64,000 nucleotides of DNA. It comes from Escherichia coli (GTDB taxonomy: Bacteria; Pseudomonadota; Gammaproteobacteria; Enterobacterales; Enterobacteriaceae). Positions 27,001 to 33,000 of this stretch are shown piece after piece; the first letter of the stretch is position 1, and each line of letters begins with the position of its first letter. A program made the position numbers. Location of the stretch: the NCBI RefSeq assembly GCF_024298765.1, contig NZ_CP101210.1; one strand, 5' to 3'.

Positions 27001-30000
27001 CAGTCGTGCGGTATTGTATAAATGGAAAGATAAAATTATCGGCAACAGTGCTTACCAGACTATGCGTAAACATAACGAACCTTCCCTGGAGGCAGAACGC
27101 GATGCGTTGCGGGAGGAAGTCGCCCGACTGAATCAGGAAATACGCCGCCGGCAGATGGAGCTGGATATTCTGAAAAAGGCGGAGGAAATCATAAAAAAAG
27201 ACCCGGGCATCAGTATCAGTCACCTGAACAACAGAGAGAAAACGAAGATCGCTGATGCCCTGAGACAAACATATCCCCTGACAGAATTACTGCATGTTCT
27301 GGGCCTTGCCCGTAGCAGTTATTTTTATCACCGGGCTGCACTGAAAGCCGGTGATAAATACGCCACGATACGTACGATGCTGACAGATATATTTAACAGT
27401 AATTACCAGTGTTATGGCTATCGTCGCCTGCATGCGATGCTCAGGCATGAGGGGGGGCGGCTATCAGAAAAGGTTGTACGCAGACTTATGGTGGAAGAAC
27501 AGCTTGTCGTCAGCCGTAACCGTCGTCGCCGCTACAGCTCATATTGCGGAGAAATCGGACCGGCTCCGGATAACCTTATCGCCAGAGATTTTAAGGCGGA
27601 GCAACCTAATCAGAAATGGCTGACAGATATCACGGAGTTCCACCTCCCTGCAGGTAAAGTCTGGCTATCATCGGTGGTGGACTGCTTCGATGGAAAAGTT
27701 GTGAGCTGGTCTCTCAGTACACGCCCCGATGCTGAACTGGTCAACACTATGCTGGATAGCGCTGTCGAAACGTTAAATGCTGGCGAACGACCGGTGATAC
27801 ACAGTGACAGAGGTGGGCATTATCGCTGGTCAGGCTGGCTGGAAAGAGTGAATGCAGAAGGTCTTATTCGCTCAATGTCCCGCAAAGGATGTTCACCTGA
27901 TAATGCGGCATGCGAAGGCTTTTTCGGCAGACTGAAAACGGAAATGTATCATGGGCGTAAATGGTCGGGCATCACGCCAGAAAAGTTCATGCAGCAAGTG
28001 GATACTTACATCAGATGGTATAACGAGCGGCGTATAAAATTATCGCCGGGTGCAGTCAGCCCCAAAATGTACCGCCAACAATGCGGGCTGGAATGATAAA
28101 GCAGTCCAGGAAATCGTCCGCATCCCCAGAACGGTCAAACATCGTGGCGTTGACAACGGGTTCCTGAGTCCGGTGAAGCGCCGGTTACTGGAAAATGTTG
28201 TGTACGTCATAACAGAAACGGAGAGAAAAACGGCGATGCAAATCAGGCGGAGAAGGGTGTATCAGCGGTTACTGAAGGTTGACCCGCTGAAGTGCATCCT
28301 GTGCGGAGGTCAGATGCGGTTTACGGGGCTGAAGCGGGGCTACCGTCTGGCAGAGCTGGTCATGATGCATGAGCCACTGGCACGACAGCGGGTATACAGC
28401 TGAGAGCCGCAGAGGGGAAGTTGCGTCCATTTTTTGAGGAATGGAGCAAAAAATCATCACAGATATAAAAAATCAATCAATGAAAGCCATTTAATTGCCG
28501 GTGCATTGTGGATGCAGTCCTCATGGTACGTAACCAGAGTTGAATAAACATCCATTTTTTTGTGTTTTTTTAACCTCCCCGGGTTTTTAATTCCTGTCGA
28601 TTAAAAGTGTTAGATTATTTGGTTAAGAGTTCTCTCGTCCTATTTATTCAGGCGTTATCACGGATATGCAGATCGCTAAGTCAGTTGTAAGAAAACCAGA
28701 CAGTGCACATCATTATACCTAGGTCTTCTCTGGAAAAATACTTAGGAATAATTTATGTAAAACAGGTTGTCGTCTTCATGATTTAAACGCAGTACATATA
28801 TATACTCTATAATAAATACAGGGAGTATCACGAGACGTCTGGATAAGAGGAATAACCAGAATAAATTGGTAAGGAATAAAGACACTTATTTCTATTGAGA
28901 AAAAACATTCATCCTGATGTGATTAGTATCAATGAAATAATGTGCTTGTATGGTTGATAAAAAATGCATCACTAAAGAAAAAACAGTATGAATAAGAATA
29001 TACGAATTTTACAATTTCTGGTCAGTATACTTTATTCTGTGCAGTCTCATTTTTCTGGTGCGCAAACAATACAACTGAATGGTAATGGTATACCTGAAAG
29101 TATAACCAGGAGTATTACAGGTGTTGATGGAAACGCGGCGCTTAATATCAGCGTGCCGTATAAAACAAGTTATACTCAAAATATACTATCTGTTGAAAGC
29201 AGTATTAACATCAAAGGAGGAACAAGCAATACATCAATCGGTGGTGCAGGTGTCTACGGTGAAAACTTTACGCTAAATAATAATGGTAGTGTTTGGGGAG
29301 GAGATGGATATAATGGTGGAATTGCTGTTAGTGGCAACAAAATATCTATAAACAATTACAGAAATGTATATGGGGGTAATGGTCTTGGTGGCTCAGGAAG
29401 TAGCGGAGGTGCAGGGTTAAGCGGGGATGATATTATAGTTGATAATTACAGAAGTATATACGGAGGTGATGATGTAGGTGGGACAGGTGGTTCCGGTGTA
29501 ACCGGTAGCAATATTACAGTGCATAATTCCGGAGGAATATTGGGCGGTAATGGCGTAAACGGTGGTGATGGTATTAATGGTAGTAATCTTTTCATTACTA
29601 ACGACAACATGATATCTGGAGGATATGGAATAAAACAAGGGGGAGATGCTATTTCTGGAAATCAAATCACTTTGAATAATAACGGTATTGTTCAGGGGGG
29701 ATATGGCCCCGACGGTGGTTGCTCTGTTTATGGAGAAGATATCCATATTAATAATCATGGTAATCTTTCAGGATTATATAATAGCCAAAAAGATGCTTAT
29801 AATACATCAATAATTTTTTCTGGCGGGTATAATTCATTAGATATTTATTCAGATTCTGTGATTAATGGTGATATTAAACTAGCTAGTATACCTGTTAATG
29901 GTACAAATGAATTAATTATTAAAAACATCAATAACGCAACAGCAATTAATGGTGGGCTAATGATTGGGAATGGCTCATCTGTTTATCTGTCAGGCAAGAA

Positions 30001-33000
30001 CTCCATTTTTAACGGAAATATAAGTATTGATGAAGACGCATCTATGAACCTGTCTGTAGGAAATGCTAATGTTCACGCAAATACTATTACATTAAAAAGT
30101 GATTCATGGCTTAATATAGACACATCAATTAAGAACTGGACTCAGGACTATTACACATTATTGTCGTCAGACACAGGTATCTCGATCGCTGATAATAGTC
30201 ACATTGTACAATACAATGTATTACTGACAGAAGGTGCTGAAAGTTATGTTTATACGTCTTTAAATGACGACGATAACAAACTGATATCCATGCTGAGATG
30301 GAATAATACAAAAGGGATGGGATATGGAACCTTTAATATAGAAAAAGATGCCACTCTGAACATAGGCGTTTCTCTTTCCGATAATCTTTCACCTTTATTA
30401 TATGATGGCTGGGACGGCAAAAGTCTGACAAAATCAGGTAATGGTACTCTTATACTTTCTGCAACAAACAATTATACAGGAAATACAGAGGTTAAATCTG
30501 GCGTATTAATTCTTGCTGCACCTGATGCTCTTGGTCGGACTGAGTATTTATATTTATCCCGTGGCGCAGAACTGGATATGAATGGGTATCCTCAGACAAT
30601 AAGCAAACTACTGACGGCTGCAGGCTCTGTGCTGAACATTCATGGCGGAAGTCTGATACTGAATAATGGAGGAGAATCTGCAGGTACTATTGCAGGGGAT
30701 GGTTCTCTGAACATAAATGGGGGAATGCTTGATATAACGGGTAATAATCGTAATTTTTCCGGTGTTTTTACCGTGAATAAGGGGGCTCATTTGGCTGTAT
30801 CCACGGCTGATAATCTGGGGACAGCCTTTGTTGATAACTATGGCACATTAACTCTGAACAGTACATCAGCATGGCAGCTTACCAACAATATCAGTGGTTA
30901 TGGTAATGTTCGCAAGACGGGAGCAGGTGCACTGAACATTAGCGATAACGCAAAATGGACCGGGATGACAGATATTATTCAGGGGACAGTGATACTGGGG
31001 AACGCAGATTCACCGGTGATGCTCGGCAGTAACCAGGTCATTGTTGAAGAGCAGGGCAAACTCTCCGGGTTTGGGGGCGTTGCAGGAAATCTGAGCAATA
31101 GTGGTATAGTCGATCTCACTACATATATGCCGGGTAATATACTGACTGTCGGAGGGAATTACACTGGCAGAAATGGACTTATTCTCCTCCAGACAGAAAC
31201 AGGTGGTGACAATTCGAAAACAGATCGTCTGGTGATTAAAGGTAATGCCAGTGGCCGTACCCGTGTCGCTGTTACTCAGGCCGGTGGTACTGGTGCAGAG
31301 ACACTTAATGGGATTGAAGTGATTCACGTCAGTGGCAATGCTGATAATGCTGAATTCATTCAGACGGAACGTATTACAGCCGGAGCTTATGATTACATAC
31401 TGAAACGTGGTCAGGGGATTAACAGCACTAACTGGTATCTGATTAGCAGAAAAGACATTCCTGTACCACAACCTGAAGCTGTACCGGAAAGCCATGATAA
31501 TAATTTGCGTCCTGAGGCAGGTAGCTATGTTGCCAGTATTGCTGCTGCAAATAATCTGTTTGTAACGAATCTGTATGAACGACAGGGACAGGAGTTGTAT
31601 ATCAGCCACATGACAGGAGAAGAAAATGAAGCAGGTATCTGGATGTATAATAAAGGAAAACATAATCGCTGGCGTGACAACAGTAGTCAGCTGAGAACCC
31701 GGGGGAATAGCTACGTTGTGTTAATAGGGGGAGATATAGCTCAGTGGAGCCTGAATGGTACCGATCGCTGGCATACAGGTATGATGGCTGGCTATGGTCA
31801 TAATAATAACAGTACGAATGCCCTGAGCACCGGATACCATTCGGAAGGAAGAATGAATGGATACACAGCGGGTCTTTATGCAACATGGTATGCCAATGAT
31901 GAAACACACAATGGTTCTTATCTTGATAGCTGGCTGCAATACAGCTGGTTTGATAATCATATAAATGGAGAACGGCTGCCTGCTGAGTCATGGAAGTCAA
32001 AAGGGTTTACGGTATCTCTGGAAGCAGGATATTCATGGAAGGCTGGAGAGTTTACCGACAATTACAAGGGAAGTCATGAATGGTATGTTCAGCCGCAGCT
32101 TCAGGTTGTCCGGATGAATGTAAAATCAGACAAATATCATGAAAGTAACGGAACCAGTATTGAAAATACCGGTAACGGAAATATTCTCACCCGCCTGGGA
32201 GCAAGAACATGGCTTACCAGCAAAAACGGTAAAAATACGCGGTATGCGGTTCCGTTCAGACCATTTGTGGAGGCACACTGGTTGCACAATAGTCGTGTTT
32301 TCGGCACCAGTATGAATGGTGTAAGTATATACCAGGATGGTGCGCGTGATATCGGAGAAATAAATGGTGGTGTTGTGGGAATGATAACACCAGAAGTAGC
32401 ATTCCGGGCTGATGCAGGCATTCAACTTGGAGAACATGGATACCATAATACATCTGCCATGTTGAGTGTGGAATATCGTTTCTGATGTGTCGGTAATGAC
32501 TCCAACTTATTGATAGTGTTTTATGTTCAGATAATGCCCGATGACTTTGTCATGCAGCTCCACCGATTTTGAGAACGACAGCGACTTCCGTCCCAGCCGT
32601 GCCAGGTGCTGCCTCAGATTCAGGTTATGCCGCTCAATTCGCTGCGTATATCGCTTGCTGATTACGTGCAGCTTTCCCTTCAGGCGGGATTCATACAGCG
32701 GCCAGCCATCCGTCATCCATATCACCACGTCAAAGGGTGACAGCAGGCTCATAAGACGCCCCAGCGTCGCCATAGTGCGTTCACCGAATACGTGCGCAAC
32801 AACCGTCTTCCGGAGCCTGTCATACGCGTAAAACAGCCAGCGCTGGCGCGATTTAGCCCCGACATAGCCCCACTGTTCGTCCATTTCCGCGCAGACGATG
32901 ACGTCACTGCCCGGCTGTATGCGCGAGGTTACCGACTGCGGCCTGAGTTTTTTAAGTGACGTAAAATCGTGTTGAGGCCAACGCCCATAATGCGGGCTGT

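What the first reader, a model, noticed from the sequence alone, without database searches (positions are those of the whole stretch)
28988..32491. AT-rich AIDA-type autotransporter with an IS1 inserted 6 bp after its stop codon and no adjacent glycosyltransferase
The 1165-aa protein has a Gly/Asn-rich passenger built from degenerate ~19-aa repeats (29240..29770), as in AIDA-I/TibA-type adhesins, and an intact-looking beta-barrel ending VEYRF. Its AT-rich coding sequence contrasts with the core. AIDA-I and TibA are glycosylated by a heptosyltransferase encoded just upstream; here the upstream region is an IS3-family remnant and an AT-rich promoter region with no such gene. IS1 starts at 32492, displacing any native terminator or 3' UTR.
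Basis: partly seen in the sequence, partly recalled or inferred. Interest (0 to 1): 0.55.

Follow-up and report, generated by a model that had tools for sequence, protein, structure and literature searches.

The report
Known adhesin gene aatA beside IS1
This gene is aatA, an already published surface adhesin of avian-pathogenic E. coli, sitting with the same IS1 neighbour as in the strain where it was first characterised, so the finding is real but ordinary.

Summary
The gene is aatA, the APEC autotransporter adhesin A. Its published length is also 3,498 bp. Its product differs by 1 residue from AatA of strain IMT5155, by 3 from BL21 and by 31 from plasmid pAPEC-O1-ColBM. IMT5155, where AatA was shown to be transcribed, made as protein and adhesive, shares 13.3 kb with the window. 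That stretch includes the identical promoter region and the identical aatA-IS1 joint. aatA occurs in 687 of 5,426 complete E. coli genomes, and the exact joint occurs in 191.

The "AIDA-I/TibA-type" label holds only for the C-terminal autochaperone, linker and barrel. The passenger, including its Gly/Asn-rich repeats, aligns end to end with Shigella IcsA/VirG. The repeats are 19-30 aa long, most often 25, not 19. No AIDA-repeat Pfam match was found, and a missing heptosyltransferase is not an anomaly for this group.

IS1 does replace the native 3' flank, has no target-site duplication, and is a recombination joint to the selC integrase arm. Verdict: already known, low interest.

The parts
28404..28987 (+). 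AT-rich upstream region of aatA. It is identical to the IMT5155 promoter region over the 288 bp aligned. The part shared with all aatA alleles starts at about 28734-28742.
   Evidence: One search aligned window, IMT5155, BL21 and pAPEC-O1. One search gave the homology limits: BL21 from 28742, pAPEC-O1 from 28734. One search measured 33% GC over 28461-28987. PMC2944236 places the functional promoter within 100 bp upstream of the ATG in IMT5155.
28895..28908 (-). Published predicted FNR-binding site of aatA (ATGTTTTTTCTCAA, -79 from the ATG). It is conserved here and disrupted by a 4-bp deletion in BL21.
   Evidence: The sequence was read and aligned. PMC5481319 Table 1 lists the site and reports an EMSA shift of the aatA promoter fragment in APEC O1.
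28988..32485 (+). aatA, encoding APEC autotransporter adhesin A (1165 aa, about 124 kDa); intact ORF.
   Evidence: ORF. Identity to IMT5155, BL21 and pAPEC-O1. Population counts. PMC2944236 describes the gene.
28988..29062 (+). Predicted Sec signal peptide, aa 1-25 (MNKNIR, then a hydrophobic core, then SGA|Q).
   Evidence: Inferred from the translation. PMC2944236 reports a SignalP prediction for AatA.
29240..29770 (+). Gly/Asn-rich passenger repeats, aa 85-261: seven units of 19-30 aa. They are homologous to the glycine-rich repeat region of IcsA/VirG.
   Evidence: Periodicity and composition. In one search the alignment of AatA 45-550 with IcsA 84-597 (35% identity, E 8e-53) covers these repeats.
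30116..30289 (+). VirG insertion domain (VID), aa 377-434.
   Evidence: Pfam PF22364, E 6.6e-7. PDB 5KE1 (IcsA passenger fragment) matches aa 376-549, E 2.5e-56.
30425..30994 (+). Two passenger-associated transport repeats (PATR), aa 480-508 and aa 642-669, and the beta-helix stretch between them.
   Evidence: PF12951, E 8.7e-8 and 0.019. TIGR02601 at aa 479-509. In one search both stretches align to the same IcsA segment, which suggests an internal duplication.
31136..31402 (+). Autochaperone domain type 1, aa 717-805.
   Evidence: PF18883, E 6e-24. PDB 3ML3 (IcsA autochaperone) matches aa 664-824, E 2.8e-24.
31637..32482 (+). Autotransporter beta-barrel translocator, aa 884-1165, ending in the C-terminal Phe.
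   Evidence: PF03797, E 1e-34. TIGR01414 at 323 bits. PDB 4MEE (AIDA-I translocator) matches aa 711-1165, E 1.4e-73.
32486..32491 (+). The last 6 bp (TGTGTC) of native aatA 3' flank. In BL21 the sequence continues TTTACATTAT...
   Evidence: downstream comparison; BL21 homology ends at 32491.
32492..33259 (-). Complete IS1 (768 bp), with insA/insB on the - strand. It has no 9-bp target duplication (left TGATGTGTC, right CGTTCATTT), so it is a recombination joint rather than a simple insertion.
   Evidence: The exact left joint is in 191 genomes and the right joint in 156.
33260..35256 (-). The selC-proximal arm of the island: P4-type tyrosine integrase (33678..34862) and tRNA-Sec (35162..35256). 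It is homologous to the BL21 selC island arm starting exactly at the IS1 end.
   Evidence: In one search, BL21 L005 37178-40000 matches window 33260-36083 at 98.9%.

Best explanation
The ORF is aatA, the gene for APEC autotransporter adhesin A. This is a classical (type Va) autotransporter carried on a selC-inserted genomic island.

The steps below rest on domain content and on homology to solved parts of IcsA and AIDA-I; they were not tested here.
1. A Sec signal peptide takes the 124-kDa precursor across the inner membrane.
2. The C-terminal 12-stranded barrel inserts in the outer membrane.
3. The passenger is threaded out and folds from the autochaperone domain into a beta-helix. The helix carries N-terminal Gly/Asn-rich turns, a VirG-type insertion domain and PATR repeats.
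4. The passenger stays on the surface.

[quoted passage not shown] It also shows that expression comes from a promoter within 100 bp of the ATG and is activated by FNR.

The adjoining IS1 is a rearrangement joint. It links the aatA module (also found beside the fec operon in IMT5155, and on ColV/ColBM plasmids without IS1) to the integrase arm of the selC island. No glycosyltransferase partner is encoded in the window, and none is reported in the sources read here.
For: Identity:
- ORF length 3,498 bp equals the published aatA length (PMC2944236).
- 1 aa (1 nt) differs from IMT5155 aatA, 3 aa from BL21 and 31 aa from pAPEC-O1-ColBM. The last two loci are the ones named in PMC2944236 (NC_012947, NC_009837), located.
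- IMT5155 L008 1-13272 matches window 19988-33259 at 99.56% and stops exactly at the far end of IS1.
- The 288 bp upstream are identical to IMT5155.

Architecture:
- Pfam finds Autotransporter, AC_1, PATR x2, VID and Pertactin.
- PDB matches are 4MEE, 5KE1 and 3ML3.
- The BLASTP alignment to IcsA runs end to end.

Function and regulation, from the literature:
- Transcript, protein, and adhesion by the allele cloned with its native promoter in IMT5155 (PMC2944236).
- FNR activation and binding to the promoter fragment in APEC O1 (PMC5481319).
- Placement in group 8 with IcsA and EhaA, as a surface-anchored host adhesin (PMC9289746).

Prevalence:
- 687 of 5,426 complete genomes and 226 plasmids carry the gene.
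- The exact protein is seen on at least 1000 contigs.
Against: - Nothing in the sequence contradicts the identification.
- Function in this particular strain is inferred, not shown.
- The BL21 allele of the same gene, which has a divergent promoter, is weakly transcribed and gave no detectable protein (PMC2944236). Presence therefore does not guarantee expression.
- The host receptor is unknown (PMC9289746).
- Whether AatA is glycosylated has not been addressed in the sources I could read.
Confidence: 0.93

Rival explanations
1. It is an AIDA-I/TibA-type self-associating autotransporter. Its 19-aa repeats would need O-heptosylation, and it has been orphaned from its heptosyltransferase by IS activity.
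For: The C-terminal 450-500 aa resemble AIDA-I strongly (4MEE E 1.4e-73, NF033176 at 275 bits). PMC2944236's neighbour-joining tree clusters AatA with AIDA-I, TibA and Ag43. IS remnants lie upstream.
Against: - The AIDA-I similarity stops at aa 649-711.
- The NCBIfam AIDA-I score is far below its cut-off (275 vs 1200).
- There is no Pfam AIDA-repeat hit at E<=10.
- The repeat period is about 25 aa, not 19.
- The repeats align to the IcsA glycine-rich region.
- No glycosyltransferase is annotated beside aatA in the stretches fetched for IMT5155, BL21, pAPEC-O1 or strain 104.
- AatA cloned alone with its own promoter conferred adhesion (PMC2944236).
Confidence: 0.04
2. This copy is a silent relic. 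It is surrounded by IS debris and has lost its 3' flank to IS1, so it is not usefully expressed.
For: - The neighbourhood is rich in IS elements.
- The native 3' flank is lost.
- The BL21 allele is poorly transcribed, with no protein detected (PMC2944236).
- Other genomes carry further IS insertions in or upstream of the gene (H1-H12).
Against: - The ORF is intact.
- The promoter region and the predicted FNR site are identical to IMT5155.
- IMT5155 has the very same aatA-IS1 joint and makes transcript and protein (PMC2944236).
- The identical joint persists in 191 complete genomes.
Confidence: 0.08
3. It is a functional analogue of IcsA, an actin-nucleating motility factor, rather than an adhesin.
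For: Homology to IcsA runs end to end at 34-35% identity and includes the glycine-rich repeats. There are also VID and autochaperone matches.
Against: - Published assays show adhesion and a virulence contribution in an extracellular or systemic avian pathogen (PMC2944236, PMC5481319).
- The gene is common in commensal and laboratory B strains.
- The IcsA segment holding the SSRRASS site falls in an alignment gap in AatA. From my own knowledge, not checked here, that site is where IcsP cleaves IcsA.
- No N-WASP data exist for AatA (PMC9289746).
Confidence: 0.02

Closest known systems
AatA of APEC IMT5155 (chromosomal, NZ_CP005930 2596665-2600162)
   Same: - Same 3,498-bp ORF, with 1 nt / 1 aa difference (S199G).
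- The aligned 288 bp upstream are identical, within a shared 13.3-kb module (99.56% identity overall).
- IS1 abuts at the same base, 6 bp after the stop.
   Different: The DNA beyond the far end of IS1 differs. In IMT5155 it is ykiE-fecIRABCDE. Here it is the integrase arm of the selC island.
AatA of E. coli B / BL21 (NC_012947 52699-56196) and of pAPEC-O1-ColBM (NC_009837 81930-85427)
   Same: Same length. BL21 differs by 3 aa and pAPEC-O1 by 31 aa, and the differences from pAPEC-O1 cluster in the barrel. BL21's copy also lies in a selC island.
   Different: - Neither has IS1 at the stop codon. Both keep about 95 bp of a common native 3' flank, followed by IS629-like sequence in pAPEC-O1 or other remnants in BL21.
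- Upstream homology ends at -247 to -254, at an IS2-like end.
- The BL21 promoter region is diverged, with a 4-bp deletion in the predicted FNR site.
- In BL21 the gene is in the opposite orientation relative to selC and about 11 kb from the integrase.
IcsA/VirG of Shigella (pINV)
   Same: The whole architecture matches: glycine-rich repeats, VID, PATR, autochaperone and barrel. Identity is 34-35% over nearly the full length, with solved fragments 5KE1 and 3ML3 matching. Both are in phylogenetic group 8 (PMC9289746).
   Different: - The reported functions differ: host-cell adhesion for AatA, N-WASP recruitment for IcsA.
- The IcsA linker insert holding the SSRRASS site is absent from AatA.
- AatA carries an extra PATR-containing segment.
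AIDA-I (and TibA, Ag43), the self-associating autotransporters
   Same: The autochaperone, linker and barrel are closely related (4MEE E 1.4e-73 over aa 711-1165). All are type Va adhesins with beta-helical passengers.
   Different: The passenger is not AIDA-like: there is no PF16168 hit, the repeat period is about 25 aa, and the NCBIfam AIDA-I score is 275 against a cut-off of 1200. No heptosyltransferase is adjacent. The phylogenetic group differs, 4 versus 8 (PMC9289746).
EhaA of E. coli O157:H7 and the F-plasmid putative autotransporter
   Same: PMC2944236 Table 1 lists them as the nearest non-AatA relatives, at 42% and 47% similarity. EhaA is in group 8 with AatA (PMC9289746). One UniRef entry even names the exact window protein 'EhaA'.
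   Different: They are only distantly similar, and I did not align them here. The 'EhaA' database name is an automatic transfer, not an identity.

Membership tests
aatA / AatA (APEC autotransporter adhesin A) | 3,498-bp ORF giving a protein of about 124 kDa. | tested here: met
   28988..32485 is 3,498 bp and 1165 aa. PMC2944236 gives the same length.
aatA / AatA (APEC autotransporter adhesin A) | Near-identity (98-99% or more) to the reference alleles of IMT5155, BL21/REL606 and pAPEC-O1-ColBM. | tested here: met
   1, 3 and 31 aa differences respectively (99.9%, 99.7% and 97.3%).
aatA / AatA (APEC autotransporter adhesin A) | Single-gene locus flanked by mobile-element sequences (IS2/IS91-like 5', IS1/IS30/IS629 3'). 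| tested here: met
   IS3 and IS91 remnants upstream, IS1 downstream. PMC2944236 Fig. 2 describes the same.
aatA / AatA (APEC autotransporter adhesin A) | Mediates adhesion to avian cells and contributes to virulence. | not testable with these tools
   Literature only, on nearly identical alleles (PMC2944236, PMC5481319).
Classical (type Va) autotransporter | C-terminal 12-stranded beta-barrel domain ending in an aromatic residue. | tested here: met
   PF03797, E 1e-34. TIGR01414 at 323 bits against a cut-off of 16; 4MEE. The protein ends ...EYRF.
Classical (type Va) autotransporter | N-terminal Sec signal peptide. | tested here: inconclusive
   The sequence shows MNKNIR, a hydrophobic core and SGA|Q. 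No predictor was available here. SignalP was positive in PMC2944236.
Classical (type Va) autotransporter | Beta-helical passenger with an autochaperone segment. | tested here: met
   AC_1 E 6e-24, plus Pertactin and PATR; homology to the solved IcsA fragments 5KE1 and 3ML3. No structure was predicted here.
AIDA-I/TibA/Ag43 self-associating autotransporters (glycosylated) | Passenger built of imperfect 19-aa AIDA repeats (Pfam PF16168). | tested here: not met
   One search found no AIDA-repeat hit at E<=10. One search found units of 19-30 aa with a dominant lag of 25. One search shows the repeats align to the IcsA glycine-rich repeats.
AIDA-I/TibA/Ag43 self-associating autotransporters (glycosylated) | Whole-protein match to the curated AIDA-I model. 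| tested here: not met
   NF033176 scores 275 bits against a cut-off of 1200, and only aa 649-1165 match.
AIDA-I/TibA/Ag43 self-associating autotransporters (glycosylated) | Cognate heptosyltransferase (Aah/TibC type) encoded next to the adhesin. | tested here: not met
   No glycosyltransferase is annotated in the 64-kb window equivalent, nor in the stretches fetched around aatA in IMT5155, BL21 and pAPEC-O1. The rest of the host genome could not be searched.
AIDA-I/TibA/Ag43 self-associating autotransporters (glycosylated) | Self-association (aggregation) and glycosylation of the passenger. | not testable with these tools
   The reference list of PMC9289746 cites a paper on AatA and cell aggregation (Wang et al. 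2011), which I did not read. No glycosylation data were found.
IcsA/EhaA-like adhesins (group 8 of PMC9289746) | Passenger homologous to IcsA, including the VirG insertion domain. | tested here: met
   E 8e-53 and 8e-99, covering aa 45-1165. VID, E 6.6e-7; 5KE1, E 2.5e-56. AatA is listed in group 8 in PMC9289746.

The most novel reading that the evidence does not exclude
The IS1 fused 6 bp after the aatA stop codon may be more than a scar. It may be the hinge by which the aatA module has been moved among chromosomal sites: beside the fec operon in IMT5155 and beside the selC integrase here. It has no target duplication, and the identical left joint occurs in 191 genomes while only 156 have this right joint. 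By replacing the native 3' flank, it may also change the 3' end, stability or antisense transcription of the aatA mRNA. Separately, the IcsA-like glycine-rich repeats might be modified or used in a way not yet examined.
Probability: 0.12. Interest if true: 0.25.

Novelty: already known. Interest (0 to 1): 0.07.

Why it matters
It matters little beyond correct annotation. PGAP and most databases label this protein only as an [quoted passage not shown], and one UniRef entry calls it EhaA. Recognising it as aatA adds a known APEC-associated virulence marker to this selC island.

Two clarifications may help annotators:
- The passenger is IcsA-like rather than AIDA-like, so no heptosyltransferase partner should be expected.
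- This copy carries the IMT5155-type promoter, shown to be active, rather than the weakly expressed BL21-type promoter.

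Tried and rejected
- Tandem Repeats Finder on the ORF found no DNA-level array in 29240-29770. The repeats exist only at protein level.
- My first coordinate guesses for the reference loci missed the gene: BL21 105-150 kb and pAPEC-O1 1-50 kb and 100-150 kb. It was found. One request exceeded the 50-kb limit by a single base, and one literature term was malformed.
- Li et al. 2010 (PMC2825928), the first AatA paper, is not held. Its content is cited only through PMC2944236, PMC5481319 and PMC9289746.
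- The terminator scan found nothing on the + strand between the stop and the IS1 far end except a weak 5-bp stem inside IS1. In the IS1-free BL21 allele the nearest terminator-like site is 770 bp downstream. The idea of a displaced native terminator therefore has no support, but it is not excluded; a rho-dependent end is possible.
- The sigma-70 consensus scan gave no + strand hit upstream of the ATG, and the total count equalled the shuffled expectation, so I rely on the published promoter mapping.
- An FNR-like palindrome at 28919-28932 has 1 mismatch to TTGAT-N4-ATCAA, but such matches are as frequent as chance in the window (3 found, 3.2 expected).
- A junction query of 306 bp over-counted, because separate nearby IS1 copies were joined into one place. 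I replaced it with 60-mers.
- I considered searching for an Aah/TibC-type gene elsewhere in the host genome. It was not feasible: the source strain is unknown, no protein search of E. coli genomes is offered, and I held no BAHT query sequence.
- I judged structure prediction unnecessary, given sequence matches to solved IcsA and AIDA-I fragments.

Full report
**1. The observation**

The six-frame ORF list shows one long ORF at 28988..32485 on the + strand, 1165 aa, starting MNKNIRILQF and ending MLSVEYRF. The finding's end coordinate, 32491, is the ORF plus the 6-bp spacer TGTGTC. A complete 768-bp IS1 follows at 32492..33259, with both terminal repeats and with insA/insB on the - strand.

The ORF is AT-rich. 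Its GC is 41.4%, and the first 1500 nt are at 36.3% (GC3 25%). The window as a whole is 49.7% and the core genes to the right are 51.7%.

Residues 85-261 (29240..29770) are 29% Gly and 15% Asn and are repetitive, but the period is not about 19 aa. The seven units are 19, 25, 30, 27, 25, 26 and 25 aa. Self-similarity peaks at lag 25 (z 6.3) and lag 30 (z 4.7), with lag 19 at only z 3.0. There is no DNA-level tandem array there.

A 584-bp AT-rich spacer follows.

**2. What it is**

The gene is aatA, encoding the APEC autotransporter adhesin A. Dai et al. (PMC2944236) describe aatA of strain IMT5155 as a 3,498-bp ORF giving a 124-kDa adhesin. They name homologues in BL21(DE3) (NC_012947), REL606 and plasmid pAPEC-O1-ColBM (NC_009837). 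I located those loci and compared them directly.

| Reference allele | Differences from the window protein |
|---|---|
| IMT5155 | 1 aa (S199G; 1 nt) |
| BL21 | 3 aa |
| pAPEC-O1-ColBM | 31 aa, mostly in the barrel |

The gene is widespread:
- The exact window protein is on at least 1000 contigs in the public protein collection.
- aatA is present in 687 of 5,426 complete E. coli genomes; of its 735 matching places, 485 are chromosomal and 250 on plasmids.
- In PLSDB, 226 plasmid records cover at least 80% of the protein, mostly from poultry and human isolates.

**3. Context**

The window is collinear with E. coli strain 104 from chicken (NZ_CP029164), apart from one extra IS66-family element at 20544..23242. 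aatA lies in an island inserted at tRNA-Sec (35162..35256, - strand), next to a P4-type integrase (33678..34862, - strand).

IMT5155 shares 13.3 kb with the window at 99.56% identity (window 19988..33259). That stretch covers DUF4198, the IS66 copies, the IS3 and IS91 remnants, aatA and IS1. The homology ends exactly at the far end of IS1. Beyond IS1, IMT5155 has ykiE-fecIRABCDE, whereas the window has the selC integrase arm.

BL21 matches the window in two blocks that end and begin exactly at the two IS1 ends: 28742..32491 (the aatA cassette) and 33260..36083 (the integrase-selC arm). IS1 has no 9-bp target duplication; its left flank is TGATGTGTC and its right flank is CGTTCATTT.

IS1 is therefore a recombination joint rather than a simple insertion. 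The exact aatA/IS1 60-mer occurs in 191 complete genomes, all on chromosomes. The IS1/integrase-arm 60-mer occurs in 156.

In the IS1-free alleles (BL21, pAPEC-O1), about 95 bp of common 3' flank follow the stop codon. All but its first 6 bp are missing here. No intrinsic terminator is detectable in that flank.

**4. Expression**

The 288 bp upstream of the ATG are identical to IMT5155. They are nearly identical to pAPEC-O1 from -247 onward, and clearly diverged in BL21.

Dai et al. mapped the functional promoter to within 100 bp of the ATG. They detected transcript and protein in IMT5155, which has this same IS1 joint. In BL21 they found only weak transcription (0.16-fold) and no protein (PMC2944236).

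Barbieri et al. showed that FNR activates aatA and shifts its promoter fragment in APEC O1 (PMC5481319). Their predicted site is conserved at window 28895..28908 and is interrupted by a 4-bp deletion in BL21.

This copy is therefore more likely expressed than silent. That is an inference.

**5. Architecture and mechanism**

Domain and structure matches along the protein:

| Region (aa) | Match | Score |
|---|---|---|
| 884-1143 | Pfam Autotransporter beta-domain | E 1e-34 |
| 717-805 | Pfam autochaperone AC_1 | E 6e-24 |
| 480-508, 642-669 | Pfam PATR (two copies) | E 8.7e-8, 0.019 |
| 377-434 | Pfam VirG insertion domain | E 6.6e-7 |
| 729-818 | Pfam Pertactin | E 7.9e-7 |
| 711-1165 | PDB 4MEE, AIDA-I translocator | E 1.4e-73 |
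| 376-549 | PDB 5KE1, IcsA passenger fragment | E 2.5e-56 |
| 664-824 | PDB 3ML3, IcsA autochaperone | E 2.8e-24 |

Full-length BLASTP against Shigella IcsA gives two alignments. AatA 45-550 aligns with IcsA 84-597 at 35% identity (E 8e-53), and this includes the glycine-rich repeats. AatA 592-1165 aligns with IcsA 494-1102 at 34% identity (E 8e-99).

No curated NCBIfam adhesin model reaches its cut-off. The AIDA-I model scores 275 bits against a cut-off of 1200 and matches only aa 649-1165.

AatA thus has an IcsA-type passenger on an AIDA-like translocator. This agrees with its placement in group 8 (IcsA, EhaA, EhaJ, YfaL, ShdA, MisL and others), not in group 4 (AIDA-I, TibA, Ag43), in PMC9289746.

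The inferred mechanism is the standard type Va route:
1. Sec-dependent export across the inner membrane.
2. Insertion of the barrel in the outer membrane.
3. C-to-N threading of the passenger, which folds from the autochaperone into a beta-helix.
4. The passenger remains on the cell surface and acts as a host-cell adhesin.

**6. The glycosyltransferase question**

No glycosyltransferase is annotated anywhere in the window equivalent. None is annotated in the stretches fetched around aatA in IMT5155, BL21 or pAPEC-O1. There is no Pfam AIDA-repeat match, the repeats are IcsA-like, and cloned aatA alone confers adhesion (PMC2944236). The absence is therefore expected rather than anomalous. I could not search the rest of the host genome for an enzyme acting in trans.

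**7. Verdict**

The sequence features are real, and all are as described except the repeat period. The AIDA-I/TibA interpretation should be replaced by [quoted passage not shown]. Novelty: already known. Interest: low.

Noticed in passing
window 32492-33259 and flanks: IS1 lacks a target-site duplication. Homology to IMT5155 ends, and homology to the BL21 selC arm begins, exactly at its two ends. The left joint is in 191 genomes and the right joint in 156, so at least some aatA-IS1 modules sit in other contexts, such as the fec operon in IMT5155.
   Followed up: partly
window 28895-28908 and 28919-28932: The published predicted FNR site of aatA is conserved here, and BL21 has a 4-bp deletion inside it. 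BL21 is the allele reported as weakly transcribed. A closer match to the FNR consensus (GTGATTAGTATCAA) lies 11 bp downstream, but such matches are no more frequent in the window than chance.
   Followed up: partly
window 28500-28987 equivalent in other genomes (H1-H12): Several genomes carry an extra IS (ISEc22, IS1414, ISKpn26 or IS2) within the aatA region. In APEC E14033 the ORF is intact, so the 2.5-kb ISEc22 lies in the AT-rich upstream spacer. This suggests the promoter region is an IS target.
   Followed up: no
window 20544-23242: An IS66-family element (ISCro1-like: tnpA, tnpB and transposase) is present here and in IMT5155 but absent from the otherwise collinear strain 104.
   Followed up: partly
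window 3291-5067: A short YadA-like (trimeric autotransporter) gene at 3291-4550 is followed by a sigma-factor-like helix-turn-helix gene at 4612-5067. This is a second adhesin candidate on the same selC island.
   Followed up: no
window 13833-15149 (- strand): A lone gene annotated ugpB (438 aa, glycerol-3-phosphate binding protein) lies inside the island, between an IS110 pseudogene and a PemK/MazF-type toxin fragment, without the rest of a ugp operon. Whether it is a paralogue or a captured piece of the core operon was not examined.
   Followed up: no
window 17493-20273: A TonB-dependent receptor (17493-19463) and a DUF4198 protein (19482-20273) travel with the aatA module in both strain 104 and IMT5155.
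   Followed up: no
window about 39550-46500: A BglG-type antiterminator, fructose-family PTS IIA/IIB/IIC, two aldolases, a ROK protein and a lyxose/mannose isomerase sit between yicI and yicH. BL21 has nothing there.
   Followed up: no
window aa 440-550 and aa 590-700 of AatA (about 30305-31090): Both stretches align to the same IcsA segment (IcsA about 494-597), each with a PATR motif. This indicates an internal duplication in the AatA passenger relative to IcsA.
   Followed up: no
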